Origin: a virus
Length of the DNA stretch: 64,000 nt
IMG/VR virus record: IMGVR_UViG_3300028844_001691
Location: 1-64,000 of that record
Reading direction: 5' to 3' (one strand)
In this document: positions 4,991 to 63,647 of the stretch, one piece after another
How positions within the stretch are numbered: the stretch's first letter is position 1
Layout of the letters: each line of letters begins with the position of its first letter
Translations under genes and position numbers: made by a program
Notes under the pieces: model-generated
Seen by the model: the letters and a program-made list of their open reading frames with translations, nothing else
Told to the model about the DNA's origin: nothing
The model's database searches: none

Positions 4991-4999
4991 GAGGAACAA

Positions 5000-49227: not shown

Positions 49228-49964
49228 TGCTTAACCTTATCATTATATTCAACTGCACTTCTAAGAATACTAAAGTCTAATCCTTGTTGATGAGCAGTTT
49301 TAATTATTGCAGTTGTATCTTTAGGAAAGCAATGTCCACCAAATCCTCTATCGGCTGTTACTTTACTGTGTCCTATTCCGATACGCTCGTCATCTGTAAC
49401 AAACTTTCTCACTACTTCAAAGTTAATACCCAGTGCTTGACAAAGATCAAACACTTGATTAAAATAACTAACTTTGGTTGCAAGGAAACTGTTACGCATA
49501 TATTTTGTTACAATTAATTCTTGTACTGTTCCTGTTTTAAATTGTAAGTCTGGCTTTAGTGGATAAAACAGGTTAATCCAAAAAATAGAATTCTCATCAC
49601 TTATATACATTGTCTTTTGTGATGCAAAGTCTTGTACTGCCGTTTCAGCTCTTAGAAACTCTGGACTAAATGATATTTGTTTATTAGGATACTGATCCTT
49701 AATTACTTGCCACCCTTCTATACTAATCGTGCTTTTAATTAATACAGGAACATCTGGCGAATCACTTAATACATCTAATACATTGTTAACATTACAACTA
49801 CCATCTCTGTGTTCTGGTGTGCTAACACAAATAATTAAAGCATCACAATCATTGATTGTATTTTTGTTTACTGCTGGGTCTACTATATGAGTTGAATGAT
49901 TATGTTTTAAAAACATATCCATTGCCTTACCTACATATCCATATCCTGCTATTGTTATTTTCAT
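49224..49964 (-). CDS. Short UDP-glucose/GDP-mannose dehydrogenase-family protein lacking the C-terminal domain
   Basis: GYGYVG, CVSTP, IKST, SPEFL, GFGGHCFPKD. Confidence 0.85.
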   Translation of the reverse strand: MKITIAGYGYVGKAMDMFLKHNHSTHIVDPAVNKNTINDCDALIICVSTPEHRDGSCNVNNVLDVLSDSPDVPVLIKSTISIEGWQVIKDQYPNKQISFSPEFLRAETAVQDFASQKTMYISDENSIFWINLFYPLKPDLQFKTGTVQELIVTKYMRNSFLATKVSYFNQVFDLCQALGINFEVVRKFVTDDERIGIGHSKVTADRGFGGHCFPKDTTAIIKTAHQQGLDFSILRSAVEYNDKVKQ

Positions 49965-50188
49965 TTTGCTATCCAATATATCCAAACCAACATAGGTATA
50001 ATAATAAAGAACTGTGGAAGGAAGTTAAGTATAAGAGCCTTCTCTTTCCATTTATAGCCTACATATATCCAGCCACTTGCTCCTATCATTTGTAGTATAC
50101 TGTTCCAAGGTGTAATACCTGCAACATGAAACACCATTGCTAATAAGATAAAACAAGCACTTGTATATTTTATTATTCTAACTAACAT
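49961..50188 (-). CDS. Small membrane protein (DUF6552-like)
   Basis: Three hydrophobic segments; P.N...GW..VG..W...ALI..N pattern. Confidence 0.6.
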   Translation of the reverse strand: MLVRIIKYTSACFILLAMVFHVAGITPWNSILQMIGASGWIYVGYKWKEKALILNFLPQFFIIIPMLVWIYWIAK

Positions 50189-50400
50189 ATTAATTTAACT
50201 TCTACTCCTGGACCAACTTTACTAGGCAAGTCTCCGTGTTGTTCTACATACCAATTGATAACTGCTTTATACCAGTTATGACTATTATGGTGTGCTTGTT
50301 TATTGAACTGATGAATGTTAACACTTGTTGCATCCATAGTTGCCAATGCCCTTGCACTTTCTAATTGCAGTTCTCTAATCGATAAACTATCTAATTCCAT
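50182..50400 (-). CDS. Hypothetical protein
   Basis: Operonic; ATG 50400. Confidence 0.7.
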   Translation of the reverse strand: MELDSLSIRELQLESARALATMDATSVNIHQFNKQAHHNSHNWYKAVINWYVEQHGDLPSKVGPGVEVKLIC

Positions 50401-51569
50401 ATTTCTTCTGCCCACGGATACATATCTAAAAATTTAGTATTACATTTATAATCCCAAATGTCAAGTGCATAATGTTTGAAAGTTTTTTTATCTTGTTCTG
50501 ACATTGGTTTATATTCGTGTATACTTTTTTCTATAAAACTCTCCCAATTATATTTTTCAGATTTACTTCTTCTATACATTAAAAAATCTTTTTTAATAGC
50601 ATTCAATTTTTTTATAGTATGTTCTCTTTTATATATAGGTATATGTCTAAAATTTTGAAAAGACGGAGTTAGGATTTCATTAAATGCTATATACATTCGT
50701 TGATCAAATTGTTCAAATTGTAATGTCCATTCTAAAAACTTATCTATAGTAAGAGTATTTAAAATACCAACACATGGAACAAGTGTTACTATTAGATTTC
50801 TTGTTTTATAGTTAAGTAATGTTTTAAAGTTCTTTTCTATAGTTTCCCATTTTGCAGGATATCGCTGATATTCAAATTCTTCTCCTACACCATCTATACT
50901 ACAGTTTATAACTACACGTTCAAATTTTTGTAGTTTTTCTATTACTTTAGGTTTAATGGCTGTAACATTTGTTATAAAATCAAGATGTATATTAGTTTTA
51001 TTTTCGTTTATTAATCCGTCTATAAATTTTTCTACCTCAGGCATTATAAATGGTTCACCACCTGCAAAACGTATATGTTTTAAGTTTGGACTTTTTAAAA
51101 CTAAATTAAGCATATGTTCTACAGGATACGAATCGGGAACAGAGTGTCTTGAAATTGTATCTATACCTTTTTCTTTTTCTAATTCTAATCCATAATTAAT
51201 CCATTGATCACTATTGTAAGTCCCACACATCTTACACTTCAAATTGCATTTGTTTGTTAAACGTAAATCTAAAAAAGATACAGTAGTATCAGACGGTTTC
51301 GAATGTTTTTGCCTTTTACTAATATTTCCAATATCTTCATAGTACCAACAAGTTTTACAAGCAGGGTGTCTTATTCCGTTGTTAAGTGCATCTCTAATTT
51401 CAGATAACGAAGAGTTAGATTTATAAAATTGTTCTATATTGTCAATAGTACTCCAGTCAAGAGAACTAAAAAACTTTCTATCTTGTATACAACATTGAGA
51501 GACTTTTCCGTCTATAGAACAAAAAAGTCCGTTGTTTGCAAGTGAGCAATATGTATTATCTAATTCCAA
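50391..51569 (-). CDS. N-terminal twitch radical SAM protein (type A)
   Basis: CSLA...QCC...CKTC; CNLKCKMC; AGGEP; TTG start. Confidence 0.92.
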   Translation of the reverse strand: MELDNTYCSLANNGLFCSIDGKVSQCCIQDRKFFSSLDWSTIDNIEQFYKSNSSLSEIRDALNNGIRHPACKTCWYYEDIGNISKRQKHSKPSDTTVSFLDLRLTNKCNLKCKMCGTYNSDQWINYGLELEKEKGIDTISRHSVPDSYPVEHMLNLVLKSPNLKHIRFAGGEPFIMPEVEKFIDGLINENKTNIHLDFITNVTAIKPKVIEKLQKFERVVINCSIDGVGEEFEYQRYPAKWETIEKNFKTLLNYKTRNLIVTLVPCVGILNTLTIDKFLEWTLQFEQFDQRMYIAFNEILTPSFQNFRHIPIYKREHTIKKLNAIKKDFLMYRRSKSEKYNWESFIEKSIHEYKPMSEQDKKTFKHYALDIWDYKCNTKFLDMYPWAEEIWN

Positions 51570-52422
51570 TTCTCATATACCTTGTGTATTTGCCTAAGTC
51601 TAATTCACCTTCGTATAAAACTGTAGACATTGGCGTTTGTTCTGCAAACTCTTTTACACTGTTAACGCAATTAACGTGTTCAGGTAATTCACTGTAATTA
51701 TTATTTTGCAATACAAGTAACTTGTCTTTAGGCATTTTTGCATACCACTCACTAAAGTTTTCTATATGCTCACAACTAGTATTAATAATAGTATCAGGCT
51801 CTTCTGTTACAGCATGACTCATTCTATCGTTTGCAGTACTCCAGCAACTCCAAGTATGTCCACTGTAGTCGATGTTATGCATATCTTCTGTAATTGCTTT
51901 AAACTGCCATCCTTGTTGTACCCAATGTGCATTTACTGAGTCTGCAATTTTTTCGCATTCAGGATTAATATCAAAACTTCTAATATTATAAATTTTCAAT
52001 CTGTGAGGCCACTGTCTAGGTGAGCCGGCTCTGTCCGCCAACGTTTTGCCATAACCAGTTTTTAAGTTGTCATCTCCTTGGTAAGCCTTTCTTGTTCCTC
52101 TGTGTGTTAACATAGATGCTAGTATACCATACCAACCGCCTAATATAAAAACGTTTCCTAAAAGCAATCCTGCTTTTGATCCATATACAACAGGTAAGTC
52201 ATCACTTCTATCTTTAACCCATAGTTCATTATTAATATCAGTTAGTACTTGTACAATCCATTGTTTGCTTTTTAATTGTCCAATACTCATAGCATCGTTA
52301 AAGTCGACATCCATATTATTCATTGTATTACTAATATCTTTGAATAAAGGATCGCTTGTTAACATATACATACGAGCAAATAAATCTTTATCGTCTTTTA
52401 CTTTTAATTGTTCTTTACTCAT
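51556..52422 (-). CDS. Class I SAM-dependent methyltransferase-like protein
   Basis: ILGGWYG, SFDINP, IINTSCEH. Confidence 0.65.
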   Translation of the reverse strand: MSKEQLKVKDDKDLFARMYMLTSDPLFKDISNTMNNMDVDFNDAMSIGQLKSKQWIVQVLTDINNELWVKDRSDDLPVVYGSKAGLLLGNVFILGGWYGILASMLTHRGTRKAYQGDDNLKTGYGKTLADRAGSPRQWPHRLKIYNIRSFDINPECEKIADSVNAHWVQQGWQFKAITEDMHNIDYSGHTWSCWSTANDRMSHAVTEEPDTIINTSCEHIENFSEWYAKMPKDKLLVLQNNNYSELPEHVNCVNSVKEFAEQTPMSTVLYEGELDLGKYTRYMRIGIR

Positions 52423-53081
52423 TTTTTAAACCTTTCTTTTAACCAGTTCCAATTATTAATATTTGTATAATCTTGTTCGTACTTGCCGTACTCTGCACCT
52501 GCTATTGCACCTGCAATACTATAATCTCCAAAGTCTCCGTTGCCAACTGTGGTCCATACTTTTAATCTAGCATCATCTTCTTCGTTCTTTTGTCCAGGTA
52601 TAATCTTACTAGTGAGTTTAGTACATTCTCTAAATGCCGCTTTCCAAGTATTAAAAGGATCAGTATCATAATGCACTGTACTTCCTATTACTGGATACGG
52701 AACAAACTTTGTACTAATTGCAGTTGTAAAGTCTACAACTGTTTCAACGTCAACGTCTAAGACTTTTTGTGTAGGGAATAGTTTTATTCCACTGTATCCA
52801 TATACCAAGTCATTAACACTGTTACGAGCTCGGTATACATATACTGCATCCTTGCCGTACTTGTCTGGCTTCATAGATGGGTCAAAGTCTTCTGCTATTA
52901 AGTTGTCGCCTTCTATAACATAATACATTTCAGTACGAGCCATTTTTGCACAGGCTTGATGTGCATTTGGTAAGCCTTGTACTCCATGACTACGCCTTGC
53001 CCATGGAAACTTTTTCTTTACAATGTCCCAATGCTTATCAGCATTAGGCTCTTCATAACTCATAAAAATAATATCAAACAT
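52419..53081 (-). CDS. GT2/GT-A-like glycosyltransferase-related protein
   Basis: DIIFMSYEEP, AHQACA, VIEGDN (DxD-like), AFRECTKL. Confidence 0.6.
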   Translation of the reverse strand: MFDIIFMSYEEPNADKHWDIVKKKFPWARRSHGVQGLPNAHQACAKMARTEMYYVIEGDNLIAEDFDPSMKPDKYGKDAVYVYRARNSVNDLVYGYSGIKLFPTQKVLDVDVETVVDFTTAISTKFVPYPVIGSTVHYDTDPFNTWKAAFRECTKLTSKIIPGQKNEEDDARLKVWTTVGNGDFGDYSIAGAIAGAEYGKYEQDYTNINNWNWLKERFKK

Positions 53082-54268
53082 TATTCGTCACCCTCAAAGT
53101 TTTTTTGTCTTTCTTCTTTTACTGCAATATTAGTAGATATCGTTGGCGCTATTACTTCACCAGTTCTAAAATCTTCTAATGTCCGCATATTGGTAGCGGG
53201 CCAGGCTACTCGTTTACTACAAGTAGTTGAACATATTCTATAACGATCCTTAGGACCTAAGCCATGTTGTTTGGCTTCCCAACTATCTACTAAATCTTCT
53301 TTAAAGAATGGATGCTCCATTACTTCGTCCCAAGTGTGCTCATATAAGTTGTTAAAGTTTTTATCGTAGTTTAAGTCGATATGATCTCTTTGTTCGTCAT
53401 TACGCATATACTTTGCACTAGTAAAATAACAACAAGGCCATAGTCTACCATCATAACTTAAATGATATTGTTTTAATTCTGTTCTCCAACGACAGTCAAT
53501 TGGATCATTTGGTACTTCAGTACTATCAAGTACTTGATGATATCTTCTAATTTTTTTCATATCGCCTTTGTTCTTTAGTAAGTATTCATCTAAATTATTT
53601 AACAAAGGACTTTTATTTTCTCTTACTTTAAATTTAGTAAATCCCATAGACTTTGCTAAAACTCTTGCTTCTAATAGTTGATGTTTGTTCCACGGAAACT
53701 CTAGCATTTGCCAACTAGCTCTGCCACCTGCATCAATAAATGCTTGTGCGTTTTCCATAATCTTATCCCAACGACAATTTTTACGATACAAATGATTAGT
53801 ATCTTCTAATCCGTCTATACTAAAGTGAACAGTATGGTCGCCTGGACCTCTGCCACGTGATAATAAAACTTCAGCAAACTCTTTTAAGTACTTAGGTGTA
53901 CGCATACTTCCATTAGTGTGCATACCAATATAGATATCTGGTCTAATTGAAAGTAAGTGATCAGTTATGCCTATTAAGTCTTTATGTCCTAACGGATCAT
54001 CGATTGTACCAGTGTACTGTACTTCTTTAATATTAGTAGCACCAGTCATAATATTTGTTATTAATTCTTTAGTTGCATACTTAGGCTTTCCTAATCCGGG
54101 TCTATTCTTCATAGGCAAGTTTTCGATGTTAACATTAACACCTTCTGTTTGAAGCCTTTTCAATTCGTTAAAGTCAATAGTGTTACGTTGACAACTACTG
54201 CATAATGCATTACATACATTACTCAGTTCAAACTGAATGCCGACTGGGTTTGGTAAGTATGCACCCAT
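53081..54268 (-). CDS. Radical SAM protein with C-terminal twitch/SPASM-like domain (type B)
   Basis: CNALCSSC; GTIDDP; FSIDGLEDTNHLYR; IDC...DGRLWPCC...CSTTC. Confidence 0.92.
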   Translation of the reverse strand: MGAYLPNPVGIQFELSNVCNALCSSCQRNTIDFNELKRLQTEGVNVNIENLPMKNRPGLGKPKYATKELITNIMTGATNIKEVQYTGTIDDPLGHKDLIGITDHLLSIRPDIYIGMHTNGSMRTPKYLKEFAEVLLSRGRGPGDHTVHFSIDGLEDTNHLYRKNCRWDKIMENAQAFIDAGGRASWQMLEFPWNKHQLLEARVLAKSMGFTKFKVRENKSPLLNNLDEYLLKNKGDMKKIRRYHQVLDSTEVPNDPIDCRWRTELKQYHLSYDGRLWPCCYFTSAKYMRNDEQRDHIDLNYDKNFNNLYEHTWDEVMEHPFFKEDLVDSWEAKQHGLGPKDRYRICSTTCSKRVAWPATNMRTLEDFRTGEVIAPTISTNIAVKEERQKNFEGDE

Positions 54269-55782
54269 TAACTACACACCTTTACACCATATGCTTGTTC
54301 AAATCTATCTGCATCTGCTCTATCATTAACCATAGGCTCGCCTCTAATATTTAAACTTGTATTAAGTAAGATAGGACAACCTGTTAGTACATACCATTTT
54401 TCTAATAGTTCTCTAACTCCACTAGGAAAATATTCGTCTACTGTTTGTACACGACTTGTTCCATCAACGTGTATGATTGCAGGAAACTCGTCTGGCTTCT
54501 TACACTTTGCAACCACTTGCATATAAGGACTTGTTTGCATTTGTGGAGGCATTTCAAAATATTCATGAACGTGTTCTGCTAATATCATAGGAGCAAATGG
54601 TCTAAACTTTTGTCTGCGTTTAATCTCATTTACTTTGTCTTTGATTTCTGCTCCTCGAGGATCTGCTAATAAACTTCTATTACCTAATGCACGTGGACCA
54701 AACTCTGCTTTACCACTTGCAACTCCTACAATCTTATTCTTTTGTAGTTCATCAATTAAAGCATCTGTTGGATATGCACCTGGGATAGGTGTTCCTAAGA
54801 ATGGAGTCTCCCAATTAAGTTTACTACCATAAGCCAATGCCGCGGCACCTAAGGCACTGCCACAGTCTCCTGGGTTAGGCATAATCCAAATGTCATCAAA
54901 GAAATTACCAAGTCCTCTATTGTATAAACAGTTAAGAGCAACTCCTCCCATGTAAACTAAATTACGGCTTTTATTAAAACCTCTAGCTCTTGCCATTACG
55001 TTATCAATAAGTTGTTCTACAACTGCTTGAGCACTTGCGGCGATATCATATTCGTTAACATCTTTTAAAAAATCTTTGTCTACACCAATGTGTAAGTTAT
55101 CTTTAAATCTACCATCAGAGTCGTCGTGTAATAGTGCATCATAAATTTCTTTTTCGTGTGTAGGTTTACCCCAACCAGCCATACCCATCATAATATATTC
55201 TTCGTCTAATGGACGTAAGCCAAGTCGATGCGTTAATGCACTATAGTATAAACCAATACTGTGTGGATACTTCTGACTCCACAACTTTTTATATACTGCA
55301 TTCATCTTCTCATCGTATTCGGCGTGCCATATACTAATAGTTTCCCATTCGCCAATAGCATCGATAACAACAACAGTTGCATCATTAAATGGACTAGTCT
55401 GAAATCCAGCCGCCGCATGAGTGTGATGATGTCTATAAGTATGAAGCATCGAGTCAGGCAAATAGTTCTTGTTATCAAATGTGAATTGTTTATTAAGAGC
55501 ACCTCTGGTAGTCCATGTACTACTGCGATCGCCAAACATTCCTTGTCCAGCATATAGTTCTCTAGTCTTTTTTAACCAAGGTGTTTCGTAAAATCCAATA
55601 GCATCAAACTTTCCATATCCTTCTTGATATGATAATGCTTGTTTAATTATTGGTTCACACAAATCTTTGTCATGTTTTTTCTTACTGTATCTTTCACTAT
55701 GTCCAGCAAAAACAATTTCGCCATCTTCAACAACAGCCAAACCTGCATCGTGAAATCCTGCACTTACTCCTAGTGTTAACAT
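54268..55782 (-). CDS. Carbamoyltransferase (NodU/CmcH/TobZ family)
   Basis: HDA, HHHTHAA, DAIGE, MGMA, GGVALN, EFGPRALGNRS, FRPFAP, HVDGTSRVQTV, LNTSLN. Confidence 0.93.
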   Translation of the reverse strand: MLTLGVSAGFHDAGLAVVEDGEIVFAGHSERYSKKKHDKDLCEPIIKQALSYQEGYGKFDAIGFYETPWLKKTRELYAGQGMFGDRSSTWTTRGALNKQFTFDNKNYLPDSMLHTYRHHHTHAAAGFQTSPFNDATVVVIDAIGEWETISIWHAEYDEKMNAVYKKLWSQKYPHSIGLYYSALTHRLGLRPLDEEYIMMGMAGWGKPTHEKEIYDALLHDDSDGRFKDNLHIGVDKDFLKDVNEYDIAASAQAVVEQLIDNVMARARGFNKSRNLVYMGGVALNCLYNRGLGNFFDDIWIMPNPGDCGSALGAAALAYGSKLNWETPFLGTPIPGAYPTDALIDELQKNKIVGVASGKAEFGPRALGNRSLLADPRGAEIKDKVNEIKRRQKFRPFAPMILAEHVHEYFEMPPQMQTSPYMQVVAKCKKPDEFPAIIHVDGTSRVQTVDEYFPSGVRELLEKWYVLTGCPILLNTSLNIRGEPMVNDRADADRFEQAYGVKVCS

Positions 55783-56786
55783 TAAGCTCGTCTCTCCAAG
55801 TCTAACGTGGCACAATGATGACCTCCACCTAGTGTACGACTATGTGTTAGTTGTACAGGTATAACTTCAAACTTTGCACGTTCTAATTTTTTAATTAATT
55901 TTGGTTGTCTAGGATCTACAATAACTGTTTTAGGATCTACACTTAAAACATTCATACCAATCCAATTACTTGCATAAGGATAATTATGAAACTCCATATC
56001 CTCTACACTGTCTACCCAAATACGTTTATGCTTCTTTAAAAATTTCGGTAATTGTGAAGGTTTAACTCTTTGTTTGTTAATTAACAATGTCGATTCATTC
56101 AACGCACATATTGTACTGTCGATGTGTGCATAAGCATAAACATCTTCCCATATGTGAACTGTATACTCAGACCCGAGTACTGTACTTAACCAAGCCGCTC
56201 CAGCCGAATTACCTGTTTGACTTTTTAAGTATAACAAGTCATTGCCAAAACGTAAAACGTTTGCGGCATCAAATATAGGAGTCTTTTCTGTAAGTTTACC
56301 ATTTTCAAATACTTCGTGTACTGGTAATGCATGACGTGGAGCACTAATCCATTTAACACCAGACTTCATTGCTTCGTGTCTAATATCTCTATATGCTTCT
56401 GTTTCGTGAAACCTACTATGAAACAATACAGGAGTTTCAATTACTGTATTGCCTACTACAAGTATAACATCTCTTGGACAATAATTATAAAACCCATCTG
56501 CAAAGTATCTATATCCATGTACTGTTTGTTGAAAGTCTAATTGTCTTGGACGTAAAACTTCGACGCCTAAATCTGTTAATACTTTTTCAAATTGTCGTAG
56601 TTCATGGTCTGTTAAATCTAATATGTCTTTACTAATTGGTCCAACTGGTTGTGCAGATTCAGTCCACTTGCTATGTTTAGCAACTTCATTAAAGACATCA
56701 TCATACTTTGGAAATCTTGCACCGTGAACATCTCCTAATACAACTCTTTTTAATGGATCCCATTCATTGTGCGATTCAATAATCAT
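55782..56786 (-). CDS. Amidinotransferase (StrB1/glycine amidinotransferase family)
   Basis: NEWDPLK, YCPRD, FDAAN, AHIDST, GGGHHCATLD. Confidence 0.93.
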   Translation of the reverse strand: MIIESHNEWDPLKRVVLGDVHGARFPKYDDVFNEVAKHSKWTESAQPVGPISKDILDLTDHELRQFEKVLTDLGVEVLRPRQLDFQQTVHGYRYFADGFYNYCPRDVILVVGNTVIETPVLFHSRFHETEAYRDIRHEAMKSGVKWISAPRHALPVHEVFENGKLTEKTPIFDAANVLRFGNDLLYLKSQTGNSAGAAWLSTVLGSEYTVHIWEDVYAYAHIDSTICALNESTLLINKQRVKPSQLPKFLKKHKRIWVDSVEDMEFHNYPYASNWIGMNVLSVDPKTVIVDPRQPKLIKKLERAKFEVIPVQLTHSRTLGGGHHCATLDLERRA

Positions 56787-57481
56787 TTCGTGTTTCCTAT
56801 TTTAAAACATTTTGTAATACTTGGATACTTCACGTGTTGTGGCATTTTTTCTTTATACTGATCCAACTTAACTATACCAACTGCCGATTGTTCTGGCGAC
56901 AGATAGTAATGATATCCAATTTCTTCATATTGCTCTTTATCCCAAGGAGACACTTTTAGGTCTCTACCATCGTACCTAGAGCGAATAATCCAATCATATG
57001 CTTCTCTATTATCTAATAGTATAGCACCGCCTTTGCCAATTGTCAATGGTTTTCCATTGCCAAAGCTCAAGCATTTGAACGTTTCTGCTTCATACATATT
57101 ACGTTGTAATCTTCTAGCACTGTCAAATATAGGTAATTGTCCTAATTTATATTCGCCAATCCATTTATCTTCATTGATATTAAAAGATAAATCTAAACGT
57201 TTAAGCATCATAGGAATACTTAAATATGTTTGATCAGGTATATCAATATGTGGAACACGATTTGGGTGTTTTCTTTTATACCACCTTATACATAATTCGA
57301 TTGCGTGTGTGCAACAATCAGTTGTTATCACATATGGTGCTCCAGTATAATCAGCAAGACGTTTTTCAAATTCGCTTATAACATCATACGGATCATTCCA
57401 ACTAACACCATAATCTTTTAACATCTCTAGGATGTCAAGATTAATAATGTCCTGTAATTTGTAAGGTGTATCTTGGTTCAT
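56783..57481 (-). CDS. Compact DegT/DnrJ/EryC1/StrS-family aminotransferase (start uncertain)
   Basis: FEKRLA, CCTHAI, IFDSA, LSFGNGKPL...GKGG. Confidence 0.82.
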   Translation of the reverse strand: MNQDTPYKLQDIINLDILEMLKDYGVSWNDPYDVISEFEKRLADYTGAPYVITTDCCTHAIELCIRWYKRKHPNRVPHIDIPDQTYLSIPMMLKRLDLSFNINEDKWIGEYKLGQLPIFDSARRLQRNMYEAETFKCLSFGNGKPLTIGKGGAILLDNREAYDWIIRSRYDGRDLKVSPWDKEQYEEIGYHYYLSPEQSAVGIVKLDQYKEKMPQHVKYPSITKCFKIGNTK

Positions 57482-57965
57482 AACCTATATTGCCTGCACT
57501 GTGTGGAACTCTTCCACGCCAAAGCACGGCTCCTCCTTTGTGCCAATTCATACTATATTGGTCTACTTCAAACATATGTCCTTGTTTTTTATCTTCTAAA
57601 AATACTAAACAACGTAACACATCATCACTACTTTCGATATGAAAGAGTTCTTTATATTTGTTATAGTGATCTGCGTGTGGTGGTAGTATGTCACCTGTTG
57701 TCATTTTATAGAATGTATAACCACAGTCTTTCCATTCTAAAATTTTTCCAATGTCTTTTGCCCATTGCGGAATTGCTGACTGATCATTAAACATCATACC
57801 AGTAAAGTTATCATGTGTATGTCCAGCAGTTCTCCATTTTGCTAATTGCTCTAAGTCTCCGTAGGCAACTCGTTTATAATCAAAACTTTCAAAGTCTTTT
57901 GTTTCCCATACAGGATCAAGTTCCAGTGTATGATATTCTAAAGGACTAATCTCTTGTGTTGCCAT
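57441..57965 (-). CDS. 2OG-Fe(II) oxygenase
   Basis: LPPHAD...PHSAGNIG..PRYTLQITG. Confidence 0.75.
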   Translation of the reverse strand: MATQEISPLEYHTLELDPVWETKDFESFDYKRVAYGDLEQLAKWRTAGHTHDNFTGMMFNDQSAIPQWAKDIGKILEWKDCGYTFYKMTTGDILPPHADHYNKYKELFHIESSDDVLRCLVFLEDKKQGHMFEVDQYSMNWHKGGAVLWRGRVPHSAGNIGYEPRYTLQITGHY

Positions 57966-59094
57966 AATGTATTACTTTCACTTTTGGATCTTTGGCTGTG
58001 TATGTACGCCATGGATCGAAAACTATTGTTGCACTGTCGACATTAAAGTTATGGTCAGTTGGGTGAGTTATAACCATAACTTCAACTGCATGGTCGAAAC
58101 CATTAACAATCATTCCACCCAACTTTCCAATATAGTGTTGAACTAGTAATGCATAAGATCCATCAGTGTATGCTACTCCTGGCTTATATGTATCACTCGT
58201 AAAGCAAATTTGCTTTCCATGTTTTAATATTTCTTTTGCCATACGTTCGGCTTGTACTTCTCTACTTTTGGCAATCGCGTCGAACAAGTCATATCCTAAG
58301 TCTAATCGTTCCGCTAAATGTCTTAGGGCAATATTATCTCTAGGGTGACAAGGTCCACCGTCGCCCATGCCTGCTTTCATATAAGCGGCACTGGTTATTC
58401 GGTATCCTGCATTACTTAAACTATTTGTTACAACATCAACATTCATATTCCCAACACTTTGGGCAACGTCTTGAATCATATTAACTAGACTTAACCTTGC
58501 ACTAATAAATGTGTTGTAAAATATTTTTGTTGCTTCTGCTTCTTCCCATGTACCAATATTATAATGCGGATCATTCTCCATTACTGTTTTGTAAAATTTT
58601 ACTAATGCTTTTGCATCAGTGTCGTTTGGTTTGTTGCCTCCAATGATAACCATATCTGGATTTACCATATCCCAAGCAACTGTACCCATAGCAATTAAGT
58701 ATGGGTTATAAATTAATCTTGCTTTATCTAATAAGCCTGCGAATTCTCTTCTTGTTGTTCCTGGAAGTACTGTACTAATCAAAACAACAATAGTATCTTC
58801 TGTTGCGTATTTGTTAATTTCTTTTAAACATTCTTTAACAGGATCTAAACCAAAGTCTTTGTTTGGTAAATGTGTTATAGGAGTTTCTCCACCATAGTCT
58901 TTATGGTGTGGAGTTTGTACTGCAACAAAGACAAAGTCCTGTCCTACTACTGCTTCTTTTGGTGTCTTAGACACTCGTACAAGCCCACTAAAGCGTTCTT
59001 CTTTGTCATACCCTGTAACTGTATGTCCTTTTTTAACTAGCATCTCAGAACTAATCATTCCAAGTTTTCCTAAACCAAACCAGCCTATTTTCAT
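57946..59094 (-). CDS. UDP-glucose/GDP-mannose dehydrogenase-family protein
   Basis: GLGKLG, AVQTP, STVLPGT, KIFYN, GDGGPCHPRD. Confidence 0.9.
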   Translation of the reverse strand: MKIGWFGLGKLGMISSEMLVKKGHTVTGYDKEERFSGLVRVSKTPKEAVVGQDFVFVAVQTPHHKDYGGETPITHLPNKDFGLDPVKECLKEINKYATEDTIVVLISTVLPGTTRREFAGLLDKARLIYNPYLIAMGTVAWDMVNPDMVIIGGNKPNDTDAKALVKFYKTVMENDPHYNIGTWEEAEATKIFYNTFISARLSLVNMIQDVAQSVGNMNVDVVTNSLSNAGYRITSAAYMKAGMGDGGPCHPRDNIALRHLAERLDLGYDLFDAIAKSREVQAERMAKEILKHGKQICFTSDTYKPGVAYTDGSYALLVQHYIGKLGGMIVNGFDHAVEVMVITHPTDHNFNVDSATIVFDPWRTYTAKDPKVKVIHYGNTRD

Positions 59095-60296
59095 AATTCT
59101 AATACCTTTGTGATATGTTTTCTAATCTCACCTGTTCTAATTAAGTTGCGATTGTGTATAAGGATTGGTCTCATATGTTTCTTTATTGTTTCTAATTCTT
59201 TATATGATTGATTACTAATGTCGATAATAATATCAAATACTTTATCCATTCTTTTAATAGGATCAACTTCCTCATCGTAACTTTCATCCCAAAACTCGTG
59301 GAATGTTTTTGCTCCCCAATGCTTTAACAAGTCTAAACTATGTACACCTGCTAACAATAATACAGGTGAACCTTGCTTCATAGGGTTTAATGTTTTTTCA
59401 CTTATTTGTCCCCAGGGGTATTCGTAATTTGTTTCACATACCAGACTAGCAAACGAGTTCCAATAAGTATCTTCTAACGGATCAGAAGTAGTAATATTAT
59501 TTATGGCTCCTACTTGTGGGCTCATATAATCTTTCATGCTTACTACTTGACATTCAGTATCTTCTTTTGTTAACGGTAAATGAGTCATAAGGTCTTTACA
59601 ACCTTTGCTATAAGATTCAAAATGTTTACTGTTGTTTAATGGAAATTTTAAAAGTACATCATCTGTTTTATGATAATGCGTAATAACACTGTCCTTTGGC
59701 ATTGTGTTATATAAGAAACTAACAGCCGCGTGTCTATGCTGATCCCAGCGATATGTAAAACAGTTTATTTTATGATTAATTTCTTCTGGTAGACCATTGC
59801 TAGGTTCTCTGTTATAATGACAAGCACCTAAACTAAAAGTGTCTAATGGGTAAATTGCCCAGTCGGAATACTTTGTGTTTTGTAATTGCTCTAACATACG
59901 ATACTCATTTGTAAATATTTTAAACTTACAGTTGTGTTTATTACACCAGTTTTGTATCATATCGAATTCATTGATGCTACAATCTTCTTGTATTAACCCG
60001 TCTGGGCAACTATACCTGGAGTGATTTTGCCATACTGATAATACTTCGTACAAAAAGAAATATACTGTCGTATGGTCTACAAAGTTAATACTTGAATCTG
60101 ACCAAGATTCGAACCATTCACACGGACCGTCAAATATAAAATAAGGGGTTTTGATTTCTAAACTTTGGAGTGATTCTGCTGTTTTTCGAAATCTTCCACG
60201 TGTGTCACTAAATTTAGTGATGGTTGACGTTGCATCAACTACAGAGTGGTTTATTGCTTTGTTAATATTATTTATGTAAATTGAGTTAAATTGCAT
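59091..60296 (-). CDS. Hypothetical protein with glycosyltransferase-like C-terminus
   Basis: Y..SF.SLVCET...ISEKT..P...WDESYD motif, reminiscent of the GT10-type donor-binding region. Confidence 0.5.
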   Translation of the reverse strand: MQFNSIYINNINKAINHSVVDATSTITKFSDTRGRFRKTAESLQSLEIKTPYFIFDGPCEWFESWSDSSINFVDHTTVYFFLYEVLSVWQNHSRYSCPDGLIQEDCSINEFDMIQNWCNKHNCKFKIFTNEYRMLEQLQNTKYSDWAIYPLDTFSLGACHYNREPSNGLPEEINHKINCFTYRWDQHRHAAVSFLYNTMPKDSVITHYHKTDDVLLKFPLNNSKHFESYSKGCKDLMTHLPLTKEDTECQVVSMKDYMSPQVGAINNITTSDPLEDTYWNSFASLVCETNYEYPWGQISEKTLNPMKQGSPVLLLAGVHSLDLLKHWGAKTFHEFWDESYDEEVDPIKRMDKVFDIIIDISNQSYKELETIKKHMRPILIHNRNLIRTGEIRKHITKVLEL

Positions 60297-61644
60297 CGAA
60301 CCAAGCCATATATTCGGGAAAAACTTCGCTAAAAATGGTACTTCTACGTTTATCGAGCTCTTTAGTATATACTTTAAAGTTCTGCTTATGATTATTACTA
60401 TCTACTGTTTGTTGACTTCTCCAGTATTCAATAATACGTTCTAGTTTAGCAGTTTCACTATTATGCATTAACTCTACAATTTCCATCTGTTTCATATACT
60501 CAACTGTATTAGTCATGTATTCTTCAAATGTTTTATCTAGTATTTTAACATCCATCATCTCAGGATATCTTAAAAAAGGTATGTCAATGTACATACAATC
60601 TCTACCGTATTGTTTTCTTATTTCAACTAAATCTTTTAGGAAGTCTTTGAATGATGTTACACTTAATGCATTGTAGGTACACATGAATGTAACTACAAAC
60701 CTGTCTTCATTTTTAAATTCTTCTAATACACGTTTTACATTTTTTATAAACTTGTTATAATCTAAACCATTTCTAATATACTCTGCTTTATTACCAAATG
60801 CTTCTGCACTTGTGTAAACTTCTAGTTTACGAACTTTGCCACTTGCTAATACTTTCTTTGCTTGATTAATAAACTTATCGAATAGTTTGTCCTCAACACA
60901 AAAGTTACTATTAATACCTAACAGTAAATCTTTATTTGGTTTATCTGTTTCAATGATCCAGTCCATCATTTTAAATGTGTTCTTGTTCATAAGTGGCTCG
61001 CCACCTGTAACACGGAACGTATGCAATGCTGGATACAACTCAGGCCACCATTCCCAAAATGCTTCTACATATGGATTGTGTTCTCTTTCTGGTATAGGCA
61101 TTCTGCCTCTACGTTCTGTCCATGTTATGTCGTTGTAATTATCTGAAGTGCTAAAGCCTCCATGTTGTTTTACTTCTTGCATCCACGCACTACTAATAGC
61201 AGGACTACAATACATACATTTAAAATTACAAGCATAACCAAAACTTACTTCTACATAACTTGGTTGAAAGTTTGTACTCCAATCATTATTTTTAATTGTA
61301 TCAAAGTGTTTGTTACTCCAACTAAATGCACTCTTTAAATGTCTGTCACTTAAAGCATTTGGATCTGCATCTTCAACTCTCCAACAGTAGTCACATTCTT
61401 TAGGTCTACCACCTTCAAGCATTTCTTTACGTTGTTGTTTTTTATATATAGAGTTGTGTAATGAACTAGGGTCTAGTTTAATTTCGTCAACTGGTACTTG
61501 GTGTACCGGTGGGTGATGACAACTATGTGCAGTTCCATTTTGTAAGTTAAGTGTAAGTTGTGTCCACTTTGCTAAACAGAATCCAGGACCTACTGCATTC
61601 AGTTTGGCTTTCATTTCATGCGGATCTGTTCCGGTAAAACTCAT
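60286..61644 (-). CDS. N-terminal twitch radical SAM protein (type A variant)
   Basis: CLAKW...SCHH...CDYC; CNFKCMYC; TGGEP. Confidence 0.92.
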   Translation of the reverse strand: MSFTGTDPHEMKAKLNAVGPGFCLAKWTQLTLNLQNGTAHSCHHPPVHQVPVDEIKLDPSSLHNSIYKKQQRKEMLEGGRPKECDYCWRVEDADPNALSDRHLKSAFSWSNKHFDTIKNNDWSTNFQPSYVEVSFGYACNFKCMYCSPAISSAWMQEVKQHGGFSTSDNYNDITWTERRGRMPIPEREHNPYVEAFWEWWPELYPALHTFRVTGGEPLMNKNTFKMMDWIIETDKPNKDLLLGINSNFCVEDKLFDKFINQAKKVLASGKVRKLEVYTSAEAFGNKAEYIRNGLDYNKFIKNVKRVLEEFKNEDRFVVTFMCTYNALSVTSFKDFLKDLVEIRKQYGRDCMYIDIPFLRYPEMMDVKILDKTFEEYMTNTVEYMKQMEIVELMHNSETAKLERIIEYWRSQQTVDSNNHKQNFKVYTKELDKRRSTIFSEVFPEYMAWFDAI

Positions 61645-62348
61645 TACGAATAATCTTCTTTAAGTATATCCCAAGTATCATAAGGCCCTTTGACTTGATG
61701 CCATTTATCTCCAGGGTTTGTCATTTTGTCTGCTAATGGTTTATCGTTTCCATTAATGTGAATTCTGTCTCCAAAGAATATCATTGGTGTTCCAATAATA
61801 TCATATACTTGTGCTTTGTTCTTTCCTTTTAGATGAATATCTATACTAGTGTTACCACCTAGTTCTGCTTCAAAGCCTGGGAAAGTTTCGTTAAACATTT
61901 CACAAATACTAACACGTTCATTATTTACTTTGTCCCATTCATAATAATCATCACGTTGTTGCCCTACGGCATTTCTTCCTACAGTACTAAAGTTTATTAA
62001 CCCTGTACGTTTTTCAATATGAAGTCCATACTTGTGTTTATATTTACTGAAGTCTACTTGTTGTTCTAACCATGTGTCCATATCTTCTGGAGCATTAAGG
62101 TTACTACTCGAAACTTCAATACCATTACGCCATACACTGTTACCTGCACATTGAAATACCATTGTACAGTTGTCTACGATCTCGTGTCCTATTTGTTCTA
62201 TTGTTTTAGGTCTATCACTACCTGTAACAATAAAGACACTTTTGTTTTTCATCCAGTTTAAGAACCAGAGTCTAAAGTCAACAGGAATTACTTGCCTACT
62301 TTCAGACAAGGTTCCATCTACGTCAAATACATAATTTACACGGTCCAA
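61644..62348 (-). CDS. HAD-IIB phosphomannomutase-like enzyme
   Basis: FDVDGTL, VTGSD, INFSTVGR, GGNTSIDI, FFGD...GND. Confidence 0.88.
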   Translation of the reverse strand: MDRVNYVFDVDGTLSESRQVIPVDFRLWFLNWMKNKSVFIVTGSDRPKTIEQIGHEIVDNCTMVFQCAGNSVWRNGIEVSSSNLNAPEDMDTWLEQQVDFSKYKHKYGLHIEKRTGLINFSTVGRNAVGQQRDDYYEWDKVNNERVSICEMFNETFPGFEAELGGNTSIDIHLKGKNKAQVYDIIGTPMIFFGDRIHINGNDKPLADKMTNPGDKWHQVKGPYDTWDILKEDYS

Positions 62349-62497
62349 CTTTTCAACTGCTCCTTTGTTGGTTTCATTGGTTCAAGTTTTTCTATCTTAC
62401 CACCCTTCTCTAAAAACTTTTTCATTCGTTCATCTAGTTTTCTTTGAAGTTCAGCAGGTTCTGGTTTTGTATAATCTTTTTGTTTATTATCTATCAT
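62336..62497 (-). CDS. 53-aa protein with SutA-like motif (not in ORF track)
   Basis: MIDNKQKDYTKPEPAELQRKLDERMKKFLEKGGKIEKLEPMKPTKEQLKSWTV; ATGA overlap with RLP stop. Confidence 0.75.
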   Translation of the reverse strand: MIDNKQKDYTKPEPAELQRKLDERMKKFLEKGGKIEKLEPMKPTKEQLKSWTV

Positions 62498-63630
62498 TGT
62501 GTTACACTGTCTATTGCTTTTCTTAATTTTAATGCTCCGGCTTTCATACCGTCTGGGTGTTCGTGAATTGCTCCACCAACATTTGCCATATAGTCAACAC
62601 CAAAGCGTCTTGTTATTTCTGGAATAAGTTCTGCTGTCATGCCACAACTTAAAGCAGGCACTACATTGTTTCCACTTAACATATGCATTGTGCTTCGAAG
62701 TTCATTTTCATCATCACTTAAATATCCGCCCCACATACCTGTATGGATTGTATCCACTCCACAGATACTTGCTAACTTACATAACACATACCAACTAATA
62801 CGATATGCATTCTTTGTACTGCTTATTACTTTGTCGCCTGACTTCTGATAATGTATATACAAAGGTAAGTTTAATTTGTTAATACTCTTATAAGATCCGT
62901 GCCCACTCCAGAAGTTAACGTGTACTCCATTACCTCCGCCATCTGCAACCATTTTGGCTCTATCTAGCAAGTACAAAGGATCACTATTAATACAATAGCA
63001 ATACACAACGTTTGTTCCTGCTAACACCCGCTGTATGACGTCTATGCGAGTCTTAAGGGGTAAACAAGCCGGGTTTGCCATTATCTCATCTTCTTTGATA
63101 AAGTCAACTCCGCCTTCTACAAATGCAGTAACAATTTCGACTAATGCTTGTTCTGTTAGTCCTGTCTTGGGTTTAACAATACTACCTAGCAATGGCTTGT
63201 TGTAATTGCCTGTAAGTTTTCTAAATCCTGATAATCCGTAACGTGGTGCAACTGCATCACATAATGAAAAATCGATATCTAAATCTAATAGTTCACATCT
63301 GTGAATATAATCGATGTCCATTTGTCCACCCATTAACACACAAAGTAATTGTGCTATTCCATCAGTTTCCCAGTCAATAATTCTATAGGGCCAAGCAATT
63401 TTAACTATGCCTGTGTTCTTTCCTATAAAGTCTGCTGGCTTTCCAATAATCTTTGCTGAGTATTGTTCAATCAACTCTGGTGTTTCATATTCATTTCTTA
63501 CACTAGGGTTACCTACACTTTGCCCGACTGCTAATCCAAATGCCGCCTTGTTTAAGTCGTTACCTTCTAGTTTGTATGTTACTGTAAAGTATTCCTTGGG
63601 ATCTACTTCACTCACGTATATATCAAGCAT
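62494..63630 (-). CDS. RuBisCO-like protein (form IV)
   Basis: KPKTGL, GVDFIKEDE, PALSCG, GGAIHEHPDG; IHYQK and GGYL replace bona fide RuBisCO residues. Confidence 0.88.
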   Translation of the reverse strand: MLDIYVSEVDPKEYFTVTYKLEGNDLNKAAFGLAVGQSVGNPSVRNEYETPELIEQYSAKIIGKPADFIGKNTGIVKIAWPYRIIDWETDGIAQLLCVLMGGQMDIDYIHRCELLDLDIDFSLCDAVAPRYGLSGFRKLTGNYNKPLLGSIVKPKTGLTEQALVEIVTAFVEGGVDFIKEDEIMANPACLPLKTRIDVIQRVLAGTNVVYCYCINSDPLYLLDRAKMVADGGGNGVHVNFWSGHGSYKSINKLNLPLYIHYQKSGDKVISSTKNAYRISWYVLCKLASICGVDTIHTGMWGGYLSDDENELRSTMHMLSGNNVVPALSCGMTAELIPEITRRFGVDYMANVGGAIHEHPDGMKAGALKLRKAIDSVTQ

Positions 63631-63647
63631 AATGTATTGTACCTTCT

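What the first reader, a model, noticed from the sequence alone, without database searches (positions are those of the whole stretch)
51556..62348. Aminoglycoside-like amino/guanidino/carbamoyl-sugar pathway in a phage
Seen in transcription order: PMM-type HAD, rSAM, GT-like protein, NDP-sugar dehydrogenase, 2OG oxygenase, DegT aminotransferase, amidinotransferase, carbamoyltransferase, rSAM, GT2-like protein, methyltransferase. Established: oxidation, transamination and amidination is the streptidine logic (StsC-type aminotransferase, StrB1); TobZ/NodU enzymes O-carbamoylate sugars; BtrN is a twitch rSAM alcohol dehydrogenase. Inference: the phage builds a guanidinylated and/or carbamoylated sugar or cyclitol. 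It would then be transferred to virion proteins, host LPS or DNA, possibly with rSAM enzymes supplying keto intermediates.
Basis: partly seen in the sequence, partly recalled or inferred. Interest (0 to 1): 0.8.

Follow-up and report, generated by a model that had tools for sequence, protein, structure and literature searches.

The report
Phage guanidino-carbamoyl sugar tailoring operon
An uncultured giant marine phage carries a tightly packed operon, built around a streptomycin-type amidinotransferase, that most likely makes a positively charged guanidino (and here also carbamoylated) sugar and passes it to phage glycosyltransferases. Such a sugar has not been shown for any virus, and its target is unknown.

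Summary

Gene assignments:
- By sequence: PMM-type HAD mutase, two radical SAM enzymes, nucleotide-sugar 6-dehydrogenase, 2OG/Fe oxygenase, half-size DegT aminotransferase, amidinotransferase, O-carbamoyltransferase.
- By predicted fold: one GT-B and one GT-A transferase.
- The methyltransferase is only a lead.

The amidinotransferase matches StrB1 (PDB 1bwd) at E 1e-83 and keeps the Asp-His-Cys triad.

Synteny:
It is dehydrogenase + oxygenase + amidinotransferase, with a GT-B gene beside them.
- Dehydrogenase and oxygenase both lie within 4 kb in 43 of 54 viral amidinotransferase lineages.
- They lie beside none of 79 cellular StrB1-like genes.
- The short DegT co-occurs in the genome but is usually unlinked.
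- The carbamoyltransferase is specific to this phage clade.

The cyclitol reading finds no support:
- A mutase and an NTP-transferase are present.
- The two near-complete distant carriers and an 87%-complete close relative have no inositol-phosphate synthase.

A BtrN-like role for the radical SAM enzymes has no sequence support. A DNA target lacks a base-activating enzyme. The acceptor remains unknown.

This scan has noted the same kind of cassette many times on other DNA. No paper I found tests it.

The parts
61644..62348 (-). PMM-type HAD phosphomutase. It probably converts a sugar 6-phosphate to the 1-phosphate.
   Evidence: PF03332 at 3e-20 over profile positions 10-217 of 221. An N-terminal DVDGT motif is visible in the translation. 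Conserved in relatives L001-L010 and L051.
60286..61644 (-). Radical SAM enzyme with an N-terminal twitch domain. Substrate unknown.
   Evidence: NF033640 at 2.5e-97, above its cut-off. A CxxxCxxC motif is in the translation. No PDB sequence match.
59091..60296 (-). GT-B-like glycosyltransferase, a member of a phage family of about 390 aa.
   Evidence: No Pfam, NCBIfam or PHROG hit. AlphaFold model: residues about 170-400 mostly have pLDDT above 85. VIA-align: FUT11 Z 9.6, HY126 GT Z 9.5, FUT9 Z 9.2, EXT1 Z 9.1, T4 BGT Z 7.8. The family lies beside the dehydrogenase in 52 of 64 distant loci.
57946..59094 (-). Nucleotide-sugar 6-dehydrogenase of the UGDH/GMD family.
   Evidence: PF03721 at 2.6e-17 and PF00984 at 2.7e-15; TIGR03026 at 1.3e-40. 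PDB UGDH matches down to 2e-16, with the catalytic Cys aligned. Invariant in 20 homologues: GxGxxG, K190, N194, C249, D253.
57441..57965 (-). Small Fe(II)/2-oxoglutarate oxygenase.
   Evidence: Invariant H97-x-D99, H155 and R165-Y-T in 29 homologues. Weak PF05118 hit at 5e-4. A profile hit to the C-terminal half of AtsK at E 0.02.
56783..57481 (-). Half-size DegT-family PLP enzyme, presumably an aminotransferase.
   Evidence: PF01041 at 2e-17, covering only part of the profile. Invariant K144 in the SFGxGKP motif and invariant D120. It is 197-240 aa in all relatives.
55782..56786 (-). StrB1-type L-arginine amidinotransferase.
   Evidence: phmmer against 1bwd at 1e-83, aligned end to end. HsvA 9e-49, SxtG 6e-47, AGAT 1e-44. 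D106, H221 and C325 are invariant in 20 homologues.
54268..55815 (-). NodU/TobZ/NovN-type O-carbamoyltransferase. The real start may be the ATG at 55782.
   Evidence: PF02543 at 6e-40 and PF16861 at 2e-52. PDB NovN 3e-51, GdmN 7e-49, TobZ 3e-39.
53081..54268 (-). Radical SAM + SPASM enzyme, variably present.
   Evidence: PF04055 at 1.8e-11 and PF13186 at 7e-4. Absent from L002, L003, L006, L007 and L009; present in L008 and L012-L016. No PDB sequence match.
52419..53081 (-). GT-A-fold transferase: a probable glycosyltransferase, though a nucleotidyltransferase is not excluded.
   Evidence: AlphaFold pLDDT 90.5. B4GALNT1 Z 11.2, STIV A197 Z 10.7, SunS Z 9.8, PBCV-1 A64R Z 9.6; IspD and MobA tie with these. 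Invariant D59 in a DGD motif. A paralogue lies at G000 71447-72133.
51556..52422 (-). Class-I SAM-methyltransferase-like protein (a lead only).
   Evidence: No HMM hit. Atlas feature hits scoring 0.96-0.97 to clusters named methyltransferase. Conserved GGWYG, IRSFDID and NTSCEH motifs.
62494..63977 (-). Upstream RuBisCO-like protein and a 109-aa ORF with no Pfam hit. They are co-conserved with the cassette and probably belong to sugar-phosphate supply.
   Evidence: PF00016 at 1.3e-33. Conserved in L001, L003, L008, L009 and L051. An NTP_transferase (PF00483, 1e-12) follows just outside the window at G000 64914-65636.
47237..51569 (-). Downstream continuation of the pathway. It holds a radical SAM gene (an insert specific to this window), two small ORFs, a second UGDH-like gene, a cupin, a cytidylyltransferase-like gene and another radical SAM gene.
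   Evidence: Pfam hits. Conservation and variability.

Best explanation
This is a soluble, phage-encoded nucleotide-sugar tailoring pathway. Its signature step is a StrB1-type transfer of the amidino group of L-arginine onto an amino sugar, which gives a cationic guanidino sugar.

Proposed order (inferred):
1. A sugar phosphate is moved to the 1-phosphate by the PMM-type mutase. It is then activated by the NTP-transferase encoded just upstream.
2. The UGDH-type dehydrogenase oxidises C6, probably to the uronic acid, because the full Cys/Lys/Asn/Asp set is kept.
3. The small 2OG oxygenase and the half-size DegT enzyme together install an amino group. One attractive route is oxidation at C4, with or without loss of the carboxylate, followed by transamination, as in the Ugd-ArnA-ArnB route to Ara4N.
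4. The amidinotransferase converts the amine to a guanidine.
5. In this phage clade, the TobZ/NodU-type enzyme then O-carbamoylates a hydroxyl. A methyltransferase-like protein and radical SAM enzymes may tailor the sugar further.
6. The GT-B and GT-A proteins transfer the sugar to an acceptor. The acceptor is most likely a phage virion protein, since the operon runs on from tail-fibre-like genes.

Shown: the gene families, the intact catalytic residues, the operon packing, and the virus-specific conserved linkage.
Inferred: the substrates, the order of steps, the product and the acceptor.
For: - Amidinotransferase: matches StrB1 at 1e-83 with the catalytic Asp/His/Cys invariant.
- Dehydrogenase: catalytic Cys249, K190, N194 and D253 are invariant.
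- Oxygenase: facial triad and 2OG-binding Arg are invariant.
- DegT: PLP Lys and Asp are invariant.
- Carbamoyltransferase: both domains score well above their cut-offs.
- Transferases: GT-B and GT-A folds.
- Sugar activation: the PMM mutase and an NTP_transferase sit next door.
- Linkage in viruses:
  - Of 54 viral amidinotransferase lineages, 43 have both dehydrogenase and oxygenase within 4 kb, and 50 have at least one.
  - The GT-B family adjoins in 52 of 64 distant loci.
  - The short DegT is present in 5 of 5 large carrier genomes, and it is paired with the oxygenase in several loci.
- Linkage in cells: profile searches find none of these partners within 10 kb of 79 cellular StrB1-like genes.
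- Phylogeny: viral and bacterial amidinotransferases separate on a tree with 2 label changes, against 53 expected by shuffling.
- Solubility: none of the 67 island ORFs is a polytopic membrane protein.
- Precedent: bluensomycin's guanidino + carbamoyl cyclitol. The S. bluensis locus holds both enzyme types within 10 kb.
- Expression: error-free short contigs from three metatranscriptome libraries cover parts of the cassette. This is a weak sign only.
Against: - No product, substrate or acceptor has been observed. Everything beyond family membership is inference.
- The DegT lacks the usual C-terminal domain and may not be a classical aminotransferase.
- In most carriers the DegT is unlinked, so the source of the amine is uncertain.
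- The role of the 2OG oxygenase is a guess. 2OG oxygenases also act on arginine or guanidino substrates and on proteins.
- StrB1's own acceptor is a cyclitol phosphate, not a nucleotide sugar.
- The N-terminal acceptor domain of the GT-B model has low confidence.
- The GT-A fold ties with nucleotidyltransferases.
- RNA-library contigs do not prove transcription.
Confidence: 0.58

Rival explanations
1. DNA hypermodification. The tailored sugar is attached to a modified base in phage DNA, as with glucosyl-hmC in T4 or arabinosyl-5-hydroxycytosine in RB69 and HY126. A guanidinium sugar would also neutralise phosphate charge.
For: - The window carries phage replication and nucleotide genes.
- The GT-B C-terminal domain resembles the HY126 DNA arabosyl-system glycosyltransferase (Z 9.5), T4 BGT (Z 7.8) and T4 AGT (Z 7.5).
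- Known DNA-sugar systems likewise pair a HAD enzyme, a nucleotidyltransferase and GTs (PMC13326640).
- The pathway is soluble.
Against: - There is no ThyA-family hydroxymethylase or hydroxylase in the own 79-kb record or in the 87%-complete close relative. The window has an ordinary ThyX.
- There is no TGT/DpdA in four records, two of them at least 97% complete.
- The fold scores to DNA GTs tie with those to fucosyltransferases and exostosins.
Confidence: 0.15
2. Remodelling of a host envelope glycan. The guanidino/carbamoyl sugar is added to host LPS, capsule or S-layer glycan during infection, for example to block superinfection or to alter surface charge.
For: - Phage-encoded GTs often modify host surface glycans (established knowledge).
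- The chemistry parallels the Ara4N and uronic-acid O-antigen routes.
- GT-A and GT-B enzymes are present.
Against: - Among 67 ORFs of the island there is no polyprenyl-phosphate transferase, flippase, polymerase or any polytopic membrane protein.
- The phage appears lytic and T4-like.
- The operon follows tail-fibre-like genes on the same strand.
Confidence: 0.12
3. A free small molecule: an aminocyclitol, aminoglycoside-like or guanidino metabolite made in the infected cell. This is the 'antibiotic synthesis gene' reading given for the cyanophage S-SCSM2R.
For: - About 50% identity to StrB1.
- The amidinotransferase + carbamoyltransferase pairing is as in the S. bluensis locus.
- PMC12801897 calls the homologous cyanophage genes antibiotic synthesis genes; this rests on annotation only.
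Against: - None of four records, two of them near-complete, has an inositol-1-phosphate synthase. Gfo/Idh/MocA hits are marginal and distant.
- The dehydrogenase is of the nucleotide-sugar type, and a mutase, an NTP-transferase and two or more GTs are present.
- No exporter or membrane protein is present.
- None of the phage partner genes lies near bacterial strB1-like genes.
Confidence: 0.08
4. Protein-directed chemistry. The 2OG oxygenase hydroxylates a residue of a virion protein to create the glycosylation site, as in collagen or Skp1. The amidinotransferase may act on a protein or glycan amine after transfer rather than on a nucleotide sugar.
For: - The 2OG oxygenase is small and unassigned.
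- In S-SCSM2R, a second amidinotransferase and a prolyl-hydroxylase-like protein were detected in purified virions (PMC12801897).
- Tail-fibre-like genes lie upstream.
Against: - The oxygenase is tightly linked to the nucleotide-sugar dehydrogenase and to the DegT rather than to structural genes.
- StrB1-type enzymes are known only on small molecules (established knowledge).
Confidence: 0.07

Closest known systems
StrB1, the L-arginine:inosamine-phosphate amidinotransferase of Streptomyces griseus (PDB 1bwd), and the streptidine/bluensidine branch of streptomycin and bluensomycin biosynthesis
   Same: - End-to-end alignment at E 1e-83, with the Asp/His/Cys triad kept.
- The logic of oxidise, transaminate with a DegT-family enzyme, then amidinate.
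- Bluensidine carries both a guanidino and a carbamoyl group, and the S. bluensis locus holds both enzyme types.
   Different: - The phage enzymes form their own viral branch.
- The partners differ: a UGDH-type dehydrogenase instead of an inositol dehydrogenase, a 2OG oxygenase, and a half-size DegT.
- None of the phage partners is found near bacterial strB1-like genes.
- No inositol-phosphate synthase is present.
- The likely substrate is a sugar 1-phosphate or NDP-sugar, and the product is probably transferred by GTs rather than released.
The Ugd-ArnA-ArnB route to UDP-4-amino-4-deoxy-L-arabinose, and the WbpA/B/E-type routes to amino uronic acids
   Same: A nucleotide-sugar 6-dehydrogenase is followed by formation of a keto sugar and DegT-family transamination. 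The result is a cationic or amino sugar for a glycan.
   Different: - Here a 2OG oxygenase stands where an NAD-dependent oxidase or decarboxylase would be.
- The amine is capped with an amidino group from arginine, not with formyl or acetyl.
- No membrane transfer machinery is encoded.
- This analogy rests on inference, not on a test.
The TobZ/NodU/NovN/GdmN O-carbamoyltransferases
   Same: Both the Kae1-like and the YrdC-like domains are present, at E 1e-39 to 1e-51.
   Different: The acceptor is unknown. The gene overlaps the end of an amidinotransferase gene, and it occurs only in this phage clade.
Phage and giant-virus glycan systems: T4 and HY126/RB69 DNA glycosylation, and chlorovirus PBCV-1 capsid glycosylation
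   Same: All are virus-encoded sugar activation plus soluble GT-B or GT-A transferases. There are fold matches to the HY126 GT, T4 BGT and PBCV-1 A64R.
   Different: None of these systems contains an amidinotransferase or a carbamoyltransferase. No base-activating enzyme was found here.
The cassette of cyanophage S-SCSM2R (PQ898602): short DegT, radical SAM, GT, 2OG oxygenase, amidinotransferase, GT2
   Same: The same enzyme types appear in one run of genes, and the amidinotransferase is 35% identical.
   Different: It has no carbamoyltransferase and no adjacent UGDH-type gene. It has been described only by annotation, as 'antibiotic synthesis genes' (PMC12801897).

Membership tests
Amidinotransferase (pentein superfamily), StrB1 type | Catalytic Cys-His-Asp triad | tested here: met
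   C325, H221 and D106 align with StrB1 C332, H227 and D108. They are invariant in 20 homologues.
Amidinotransferase (pentein superfamily), StrB1 type | Full-length similarity to StrB1 that is stronger than to glycine, polyamine or saxitoxin-type enzymes | tested here: met
   1bwd at 1e-83 over residues 2-332, against HsvA 9e-49, SxtG 6e-47 and AGAT 1e-44.
Amidinotransferase (pentein superfamily), StrB1 type | Arginine as donor and an amino-cyclitol or amino-sugar phosphate as acceptor | not testable with these tools
   This needs an enzyme assay.
Streptidine/bluensidine (aminocyclitol) pathway | Supply and oxidation of inositol (inositol-1-phosphate synthase, Gfo/Idh/MocA dehydrogenase) | tested here: not met
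   PF01658 is absent from the own record, from an 87%-complete relative and from two carrier genomes at least 97% complete. PF01408 gives only marginal, distant hits. The own record is only 22% complete.
UDP-glucose/GDP-mannose dehydrogenase family | Rossmann GxGxxG motif, catalytic Cys, and Lys/Asn/Asp helper residues | tested here: met
   G7, G9, G12, K190, N194, C249 and D253 are invariant. The Cys aligns with the UGDH catalytic Cys. The assignment of the helper residues rests on my recollection of the S. pyogenes UGDH residues.
UDP-glucose/GDP-mannose dehydrogenase family | C-terminal nucleotide-sugar-binding domain | tested here: inconclusive
   Pfam reports the N-terminal and central domains only. 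TIGR03026 aligns up to position 363 of 413 but scores below its cut-off.
DegT/DnrJ/EryC1 sugar aminotransferases | PLP-binding Lys, and the Asp that pairs with the pyridine nitrogen | tested here: met
   K144 (SFGxGKP) and D120 are invariant in 13 homologues. The Pfam hit is above its cut-off.
DegT/DnrJ/EryC1 sugar aminotransferases | Two-domain architecture of about 360-400 aa | tested here: not met
   The protein is 232 aa here and 197-240 aa in all relatives. The match stops near profile position 242 of 360.
Fe(II)/2-oxoglutarate oxygenases | HxD...H facial triad and a basic residue for the 2OG C5 carboxylate | tested here: met
   H97, D99, H155 and R165 are invariant in 29 sequences.
Fe(II)/2-oxoglutarate oxygenases | A significant match to a curated family model | tested here: inconclusive
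   PF05118 scores 20.4 bits against a cut-off of 22.6. AtsK gives E 0.02 over the C-terminal half.
NodU/CmcH/TobZ O-carbamoyltransferases | Kae1-like N-terminal domain plus YrdC-like C-terminal domain | tested here: met
   PF02543 scores 138 bits and PF16861 scores 178 bits, both far above their cut-offs. PDB relatives score 1e-39 to 1e-51.
GT-B glycosyltransferases (59091-60296) | Two Rossmann-like domains, the C-terminal one binding the nucleotide sugar | tested here: inconclusive
   The C-terminal domain is confident and matches GT10, GT47 and phage GTs at Z 9.1-9.6. The N-terminal 110 residues have pLDDT below 50. The only sequence hit is E 0.88, to a fucosyltransferase.
GT-A glycosyltransferases (52419-53081) | GT-A fold with a DxD-type motif | tested here: inconclusive
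   The fold is met (Z up to 11.2) and D59 is invariant in a DGD motif. IspD/MobA/HddC nucleotidyltransferases score within 1 Z unit.
BtrN-type twitch radical SAM dehydrogenases | Detectable relationship to BtrN | tested here: inconclusive
   phmmer against all PDB chains finds no radical SAM match for either protein. Fold was not tested. NF033640 names only a twitch-domain subfamily of unknown function.
Phage DNA sugar-hypermodification systems | An enzyme that makes the acceptor base: a ThyA-family hydroxymethylase or hydroxylase, or DpdA | tested here: not met
   PF00303 is absent from the own record and from the 87%-complete relative. PF01702 is absent from four records. The own record is a fragment.

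The most novel reading that the evidence does not exclude
Aquatic giant phages decorate a virion protein, or less likely their DNA, with a natural guanidino sugar. It would be made by a virus-specific route in which a small 2OG oxygenase takes the place of the NAD-dependent keto-sugar step and a shrunken DegT supplies the amine. A StrB1-type enzyme then amidinates an NDP-4-amino sugar. The amine and phosphate of such a sugar sit 1,4 across the ring, as in inosamine 4-phosphate. In this clade the sugar is also O-carbamoylated. It would be the first guanidino glycan known in biology.
Probability: 0.2. Interest if true: 0.8.

Novelty: new variant of a known kind. Interest (0 to 1): 0.62.

Why it matters
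If this is right, a large and widespread group of aquatic giant phages makes a permanently cationic sugar that has never been seen in a natural glycan.
- It would add a new reaction type, amidino transfer onto an activated sugar, to nucleotide-sugar biochemistry.
- It would give a function to a very common viral "amidinotransferase" gene, which the literature now lists as an antibiotic or creatine-pathway gene.
- It would point to virion or DNA decoration as a factor in host recognition or defence evasion in the sea.

The enzymes are small and soluble. The question can be tested directly by in vitro reconstitution and mass spectrometry.

Tried and rejected
- Megablast of the cassette against 50,697 phage records found no match.
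- Sigma-70 promoter-like sites and terminator-like sites are not enriched. The T4 late-promoter word TATAAATA occurs 3 times against 12 expected. The timing of expression therefore cannot be read from the sequence.
- PDB sequence searches with both radical SAM proteins gave nothing useful.
- Genes that follow the amidinotransferase in distant phages:
  - The 240-aa and 410-aa genes have no Pfam hit.
  - The 240-aa family is not related to the window's 220-aa or 288-aa proteins. Its only PDB hit is to a methyltransferase at E 0.11.
A profile search found no homologue within 10 kb of 80 bacterial strB1-like genes, S. griseus included.
- Longer forms (about 350 aa) of the GT-A family gave no informative extra domain.
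- RNA-library contigs cover the cassette in short error-free pieces. They cannot show transcription, strand or level.
- ThyA, TGT and inositol-phosphate synthase searches were negative. The own record is only 22% complete.

Full report
**What is there**

The stretch 51556-62348 holds eleven minus-strand ORFs. Neighbouring genes overlap by 1 to 41 bases, and the region has no minus-strand terminator-like site. In transcription order they are:
- a PMM-type HAD mutase (PF03332, 3e-20);
- a radical SAM protein of the N-terminal-twitch subfamily (NF033640, 2.5e-97);
- a 401-aa protein without any sequence family;
- a UDP-glucose/GDP-mannose-type dehydrogenase;
- a 174-aa cupin;
- a 232-aa DegT-family protein;
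- an amidinotransferase;
- a two-domain O-carbamoyltransferase (NovN, GdmN and TobZ at 1e-39 to 1e-51);
- a radical SAM + SPASM protein;
- a 220-aa protein and a 288-aa protein with no HMM hits.

**The key enzymes look active**

- Amidinotransferase. It aligns end to end with StrB1 (PDB 1bwd) at E 1e-83. That is far better than its matches to HsvA, SxtG or glycine amidinotransferase. Its Asp106, His221 and Cys325 match the StrB1 triad and are invariant in 20 homologues.
- Dehydrogenase. It keeps the Rossmann motif, the catalytic Cys249, and Lys190, Asn194 and Asp253 in all 20 homologues aligned. This suggests full oxidation to a uronic acid. That reading rests on what is known of UGDH.
- Cupin. 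It scores only 5e-4 in Pfam. An alignment of 29 homologues shows invariant His97-x-Asp99, His155 and Arg165, the hallmark of Fe(II)/2-oxoglutarate oxygenases.
- Short DegT. It keeps the PLP lysine (Lys144) and Asp120, and it is 197-240 aa in every relative. It is therefore a conserved half-size form, not a broken gene.

**The unknown proteins**

- The 401-aa protein was modelled with an alignment of 39 homologues. Its confident C-terminal domain has a GT-B nucleotide-sugar-binding fold. The matches are fucosyltransferases at Z 9.2-9.6, the phage HY126 glycosyltransferase at Z 9.5, EXT1 at Z 9.1 and T4 beta-glucosyltransferase at Z 7.8. The N-terminal part is poorly modelled.
- The 220-aa protein gives a confident model (pLDDT 90.5) with a GT-A fold and an invariant DGD motif. 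Nucleotidyltransferases of the same fold score almost as well.
- The 288-aa protein has methyltransferase-like motifs and an Atlas lead only.

**Conservation**

- The whole order, from the RuBisCO-like gene through the cassette to a downstream cytidylyltransferase-like gene, recurs in close relatives at 41-100% protein identity. The two radical SAM genes at 53081-54268 and 50391-51569 come and go.
- A profile-guided scan found 428 viral stretches that encode a relative of the amidinotransferase.
- I clustered the 80 fetched viral loci at 90% identity, which gave 54 lineages. Of these, 43 have both the dehydrogenase and the oxygenase within 4 kb, usually directly upstream and overlapping. Fifty have at least one of the two.
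- The GT-B family sits beside them in 52 of 64 distant loci. It is usually on the opposite strand and often present in two to four copies.
- A DegT lies within 6 kb in only 10 lineages. The same short DegT is nevertheless found elsewhere in all five large carrier genomes searched. In several loci it is paired with a copy of the oxygenase.
- The carbamoyltransferase, the GT-A gene and the methyltransferase-like gene accompany the amidinotransferase only in this phage's own clade.
- The distant carriers are phages of 290-345 kb without psbA.

**The module is viral**

- Eighty cellular loci with StrB1-like genes were fetched, among them the streptomycin and bluensomycin producers.
- Profile searches with the phage dehydrogenase, oxygenase and GT-B families find nothing within 10 kb of these genes. 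The one exception is an 18.5-kb contig binned as Haliscomenobacter, and its amidinotransferase nests among the viral ones.
- On a FastTree tree, the viral and bacterial labels need only two changes, against 53 expected by shuffling.

**Sugar, not cyclitol**

- The own record continues past the window. It carries an NTP_transferase (PF00483) just upstream of the RuBisCO-like gene. Further upstream are three DUF6071 genes and tail-fibre-like genes on the same strand.
- With the PMM-type mutase, this gives a standard sugar-1-phosphate activation step.
- No inositol-1-phosphate synthase is present in the own record, in an 87%-complete close relative or in two near-complete carriers. Gfo/Idh/MocA hits are marginal and distant.
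- The bluensomycin producer does pair a StrB1-like gene with a carbamoyltransferase. The chemical pairing of guanidino and carbamoyl groups on one ring therefore has a precedent.

**Target**

- None of the 67 minus-strand ORFs between 22 and 79 kb is a polytopic membrane protein. The phage encodes no lipid-linked glycan route.
- For a DNA target, a base-activating enzyme would be expected. The own record and the close relative have no ThyA-family gene, and the window has an ordinary ThyX. Four records, two of them near-complete, have no TGT/DpdA. The own record is only 22% complete, so this evidence is weak.
- A virion protein is the most economical acceptor, given the upstream tail-fibre-like genes. 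This is inference.

**Literature and field data**

- Among the papers retrieved with the terms amidinotransferase and phage, the only one I found describing such genes in a phage is on the cyanophage S-SCSM2R. It lists a similar cassette as 'antibiotic synthesis genes' on annotation alone.
- Phage DNA arabinosylation systems show a comparable sugar-activation logic but have no amidinotransferase.
- The cassette occurs nearly unchanged in marine metagenomes of several studies. Short error-free pieces appear in three metatranscriptome libraries. This is only a weak sign of expression.
- This scan has noted the same kind of cassette many times on other DNA. Those notes agree with my reading, but they are not independent evidence.

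**Verdict**

- The best reading is a virus-specific nucleotide-sugar pathway to a guanidino sugar. In this clade the sugar is also carbamoylated, and phage glycosyltransferases pass it to an unknown acceptor.
- The product, the substrates and the target are untested.

Noticed in passing
window 26208-61644 and 25316-26114: The cassette sits in a minus-strand run of about 40 kb that holds some 16 radical SAM genes. Many have a SPASM/twitch domain ahead of the radical SAM core. NifU-like and SufE genes lie at the far end.
   Followed up: partly
window 62494-63630: A RuBisCO large-chain-like protein (PF00016, 1.3e-33) lies directly upstream of the PMM-type mutase. It is co-conserved with the cassette in close relatives.
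   Followed up: partly
window 6842-7759: A QueE-like radical SAM gene (phrog_2076, 5e-50). The own record and a close relative have no TGT/DpdA, so its role is unclear.
   Followed up: partly
L145 (MAG contig labelled Haliscomenobacter), 1932-5861: An 18.5-kb contig binned in a bacterial MAG carries the GT-B, dehydrogenase, oxygenase and amidinotransferase set. Its amidinotransferase nests among the viral ones. It is either a phage contig that was mis-binned or a hint at the host.
   Followed up: partly
L039, L045, L050: Some giant-phage loci carry two amidinotransferase copies and two to four GT-B paralogues within 15 kb.
   Followed up: no
L017-L079, directly downstream of the amidinotransferase (e.g. 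L027:11044-11766): A conserved gene of about 240 aa follows the amidinotransferase in 22 loci. Its only hit is a weak one to a methyltransferase (PDB 2avn, E 0.11). A survey paper reports a viral 'guanidinoacetate methyltransferase' as strongly virus-enriched in the Arctic Ocean (PMC11360552). This gene could be a guanidino N-methyltransferase.
   Followed up: partly
G000 71447-72133 (L187:8226-9161), outside the window: A second paralogue of the GT-A-fold protein (profile E 8.5e-40) lies upstream among unknown genes of 240-310 aa. Three DUF6071 genes and tail-fibre-like ORFs are in the same run.
   Followed up: partly
window 55782-55815: The listed carbamoyltransferase ORF starts at a TTG that overlaps the amidinotransferase by 34 nt. 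An in-frame ATG at residue 12 (near 55782) gives a more typical N-terminus and an overlap of about one base.
   Followed up: no
window 23086-23808: A 240-aa ORF matches only the middle of the AMP-binding enzyme profile (PF00501, 3e-12). It is a short or split adenylating enzyme at the end of the island.
   Followed up: no
window 50391-51569: This radical SAM gene sits between the methyltransferase-like gene and the small ORFs only in this window's phage. Close relatives lack it at that position.
   Followed up: partly
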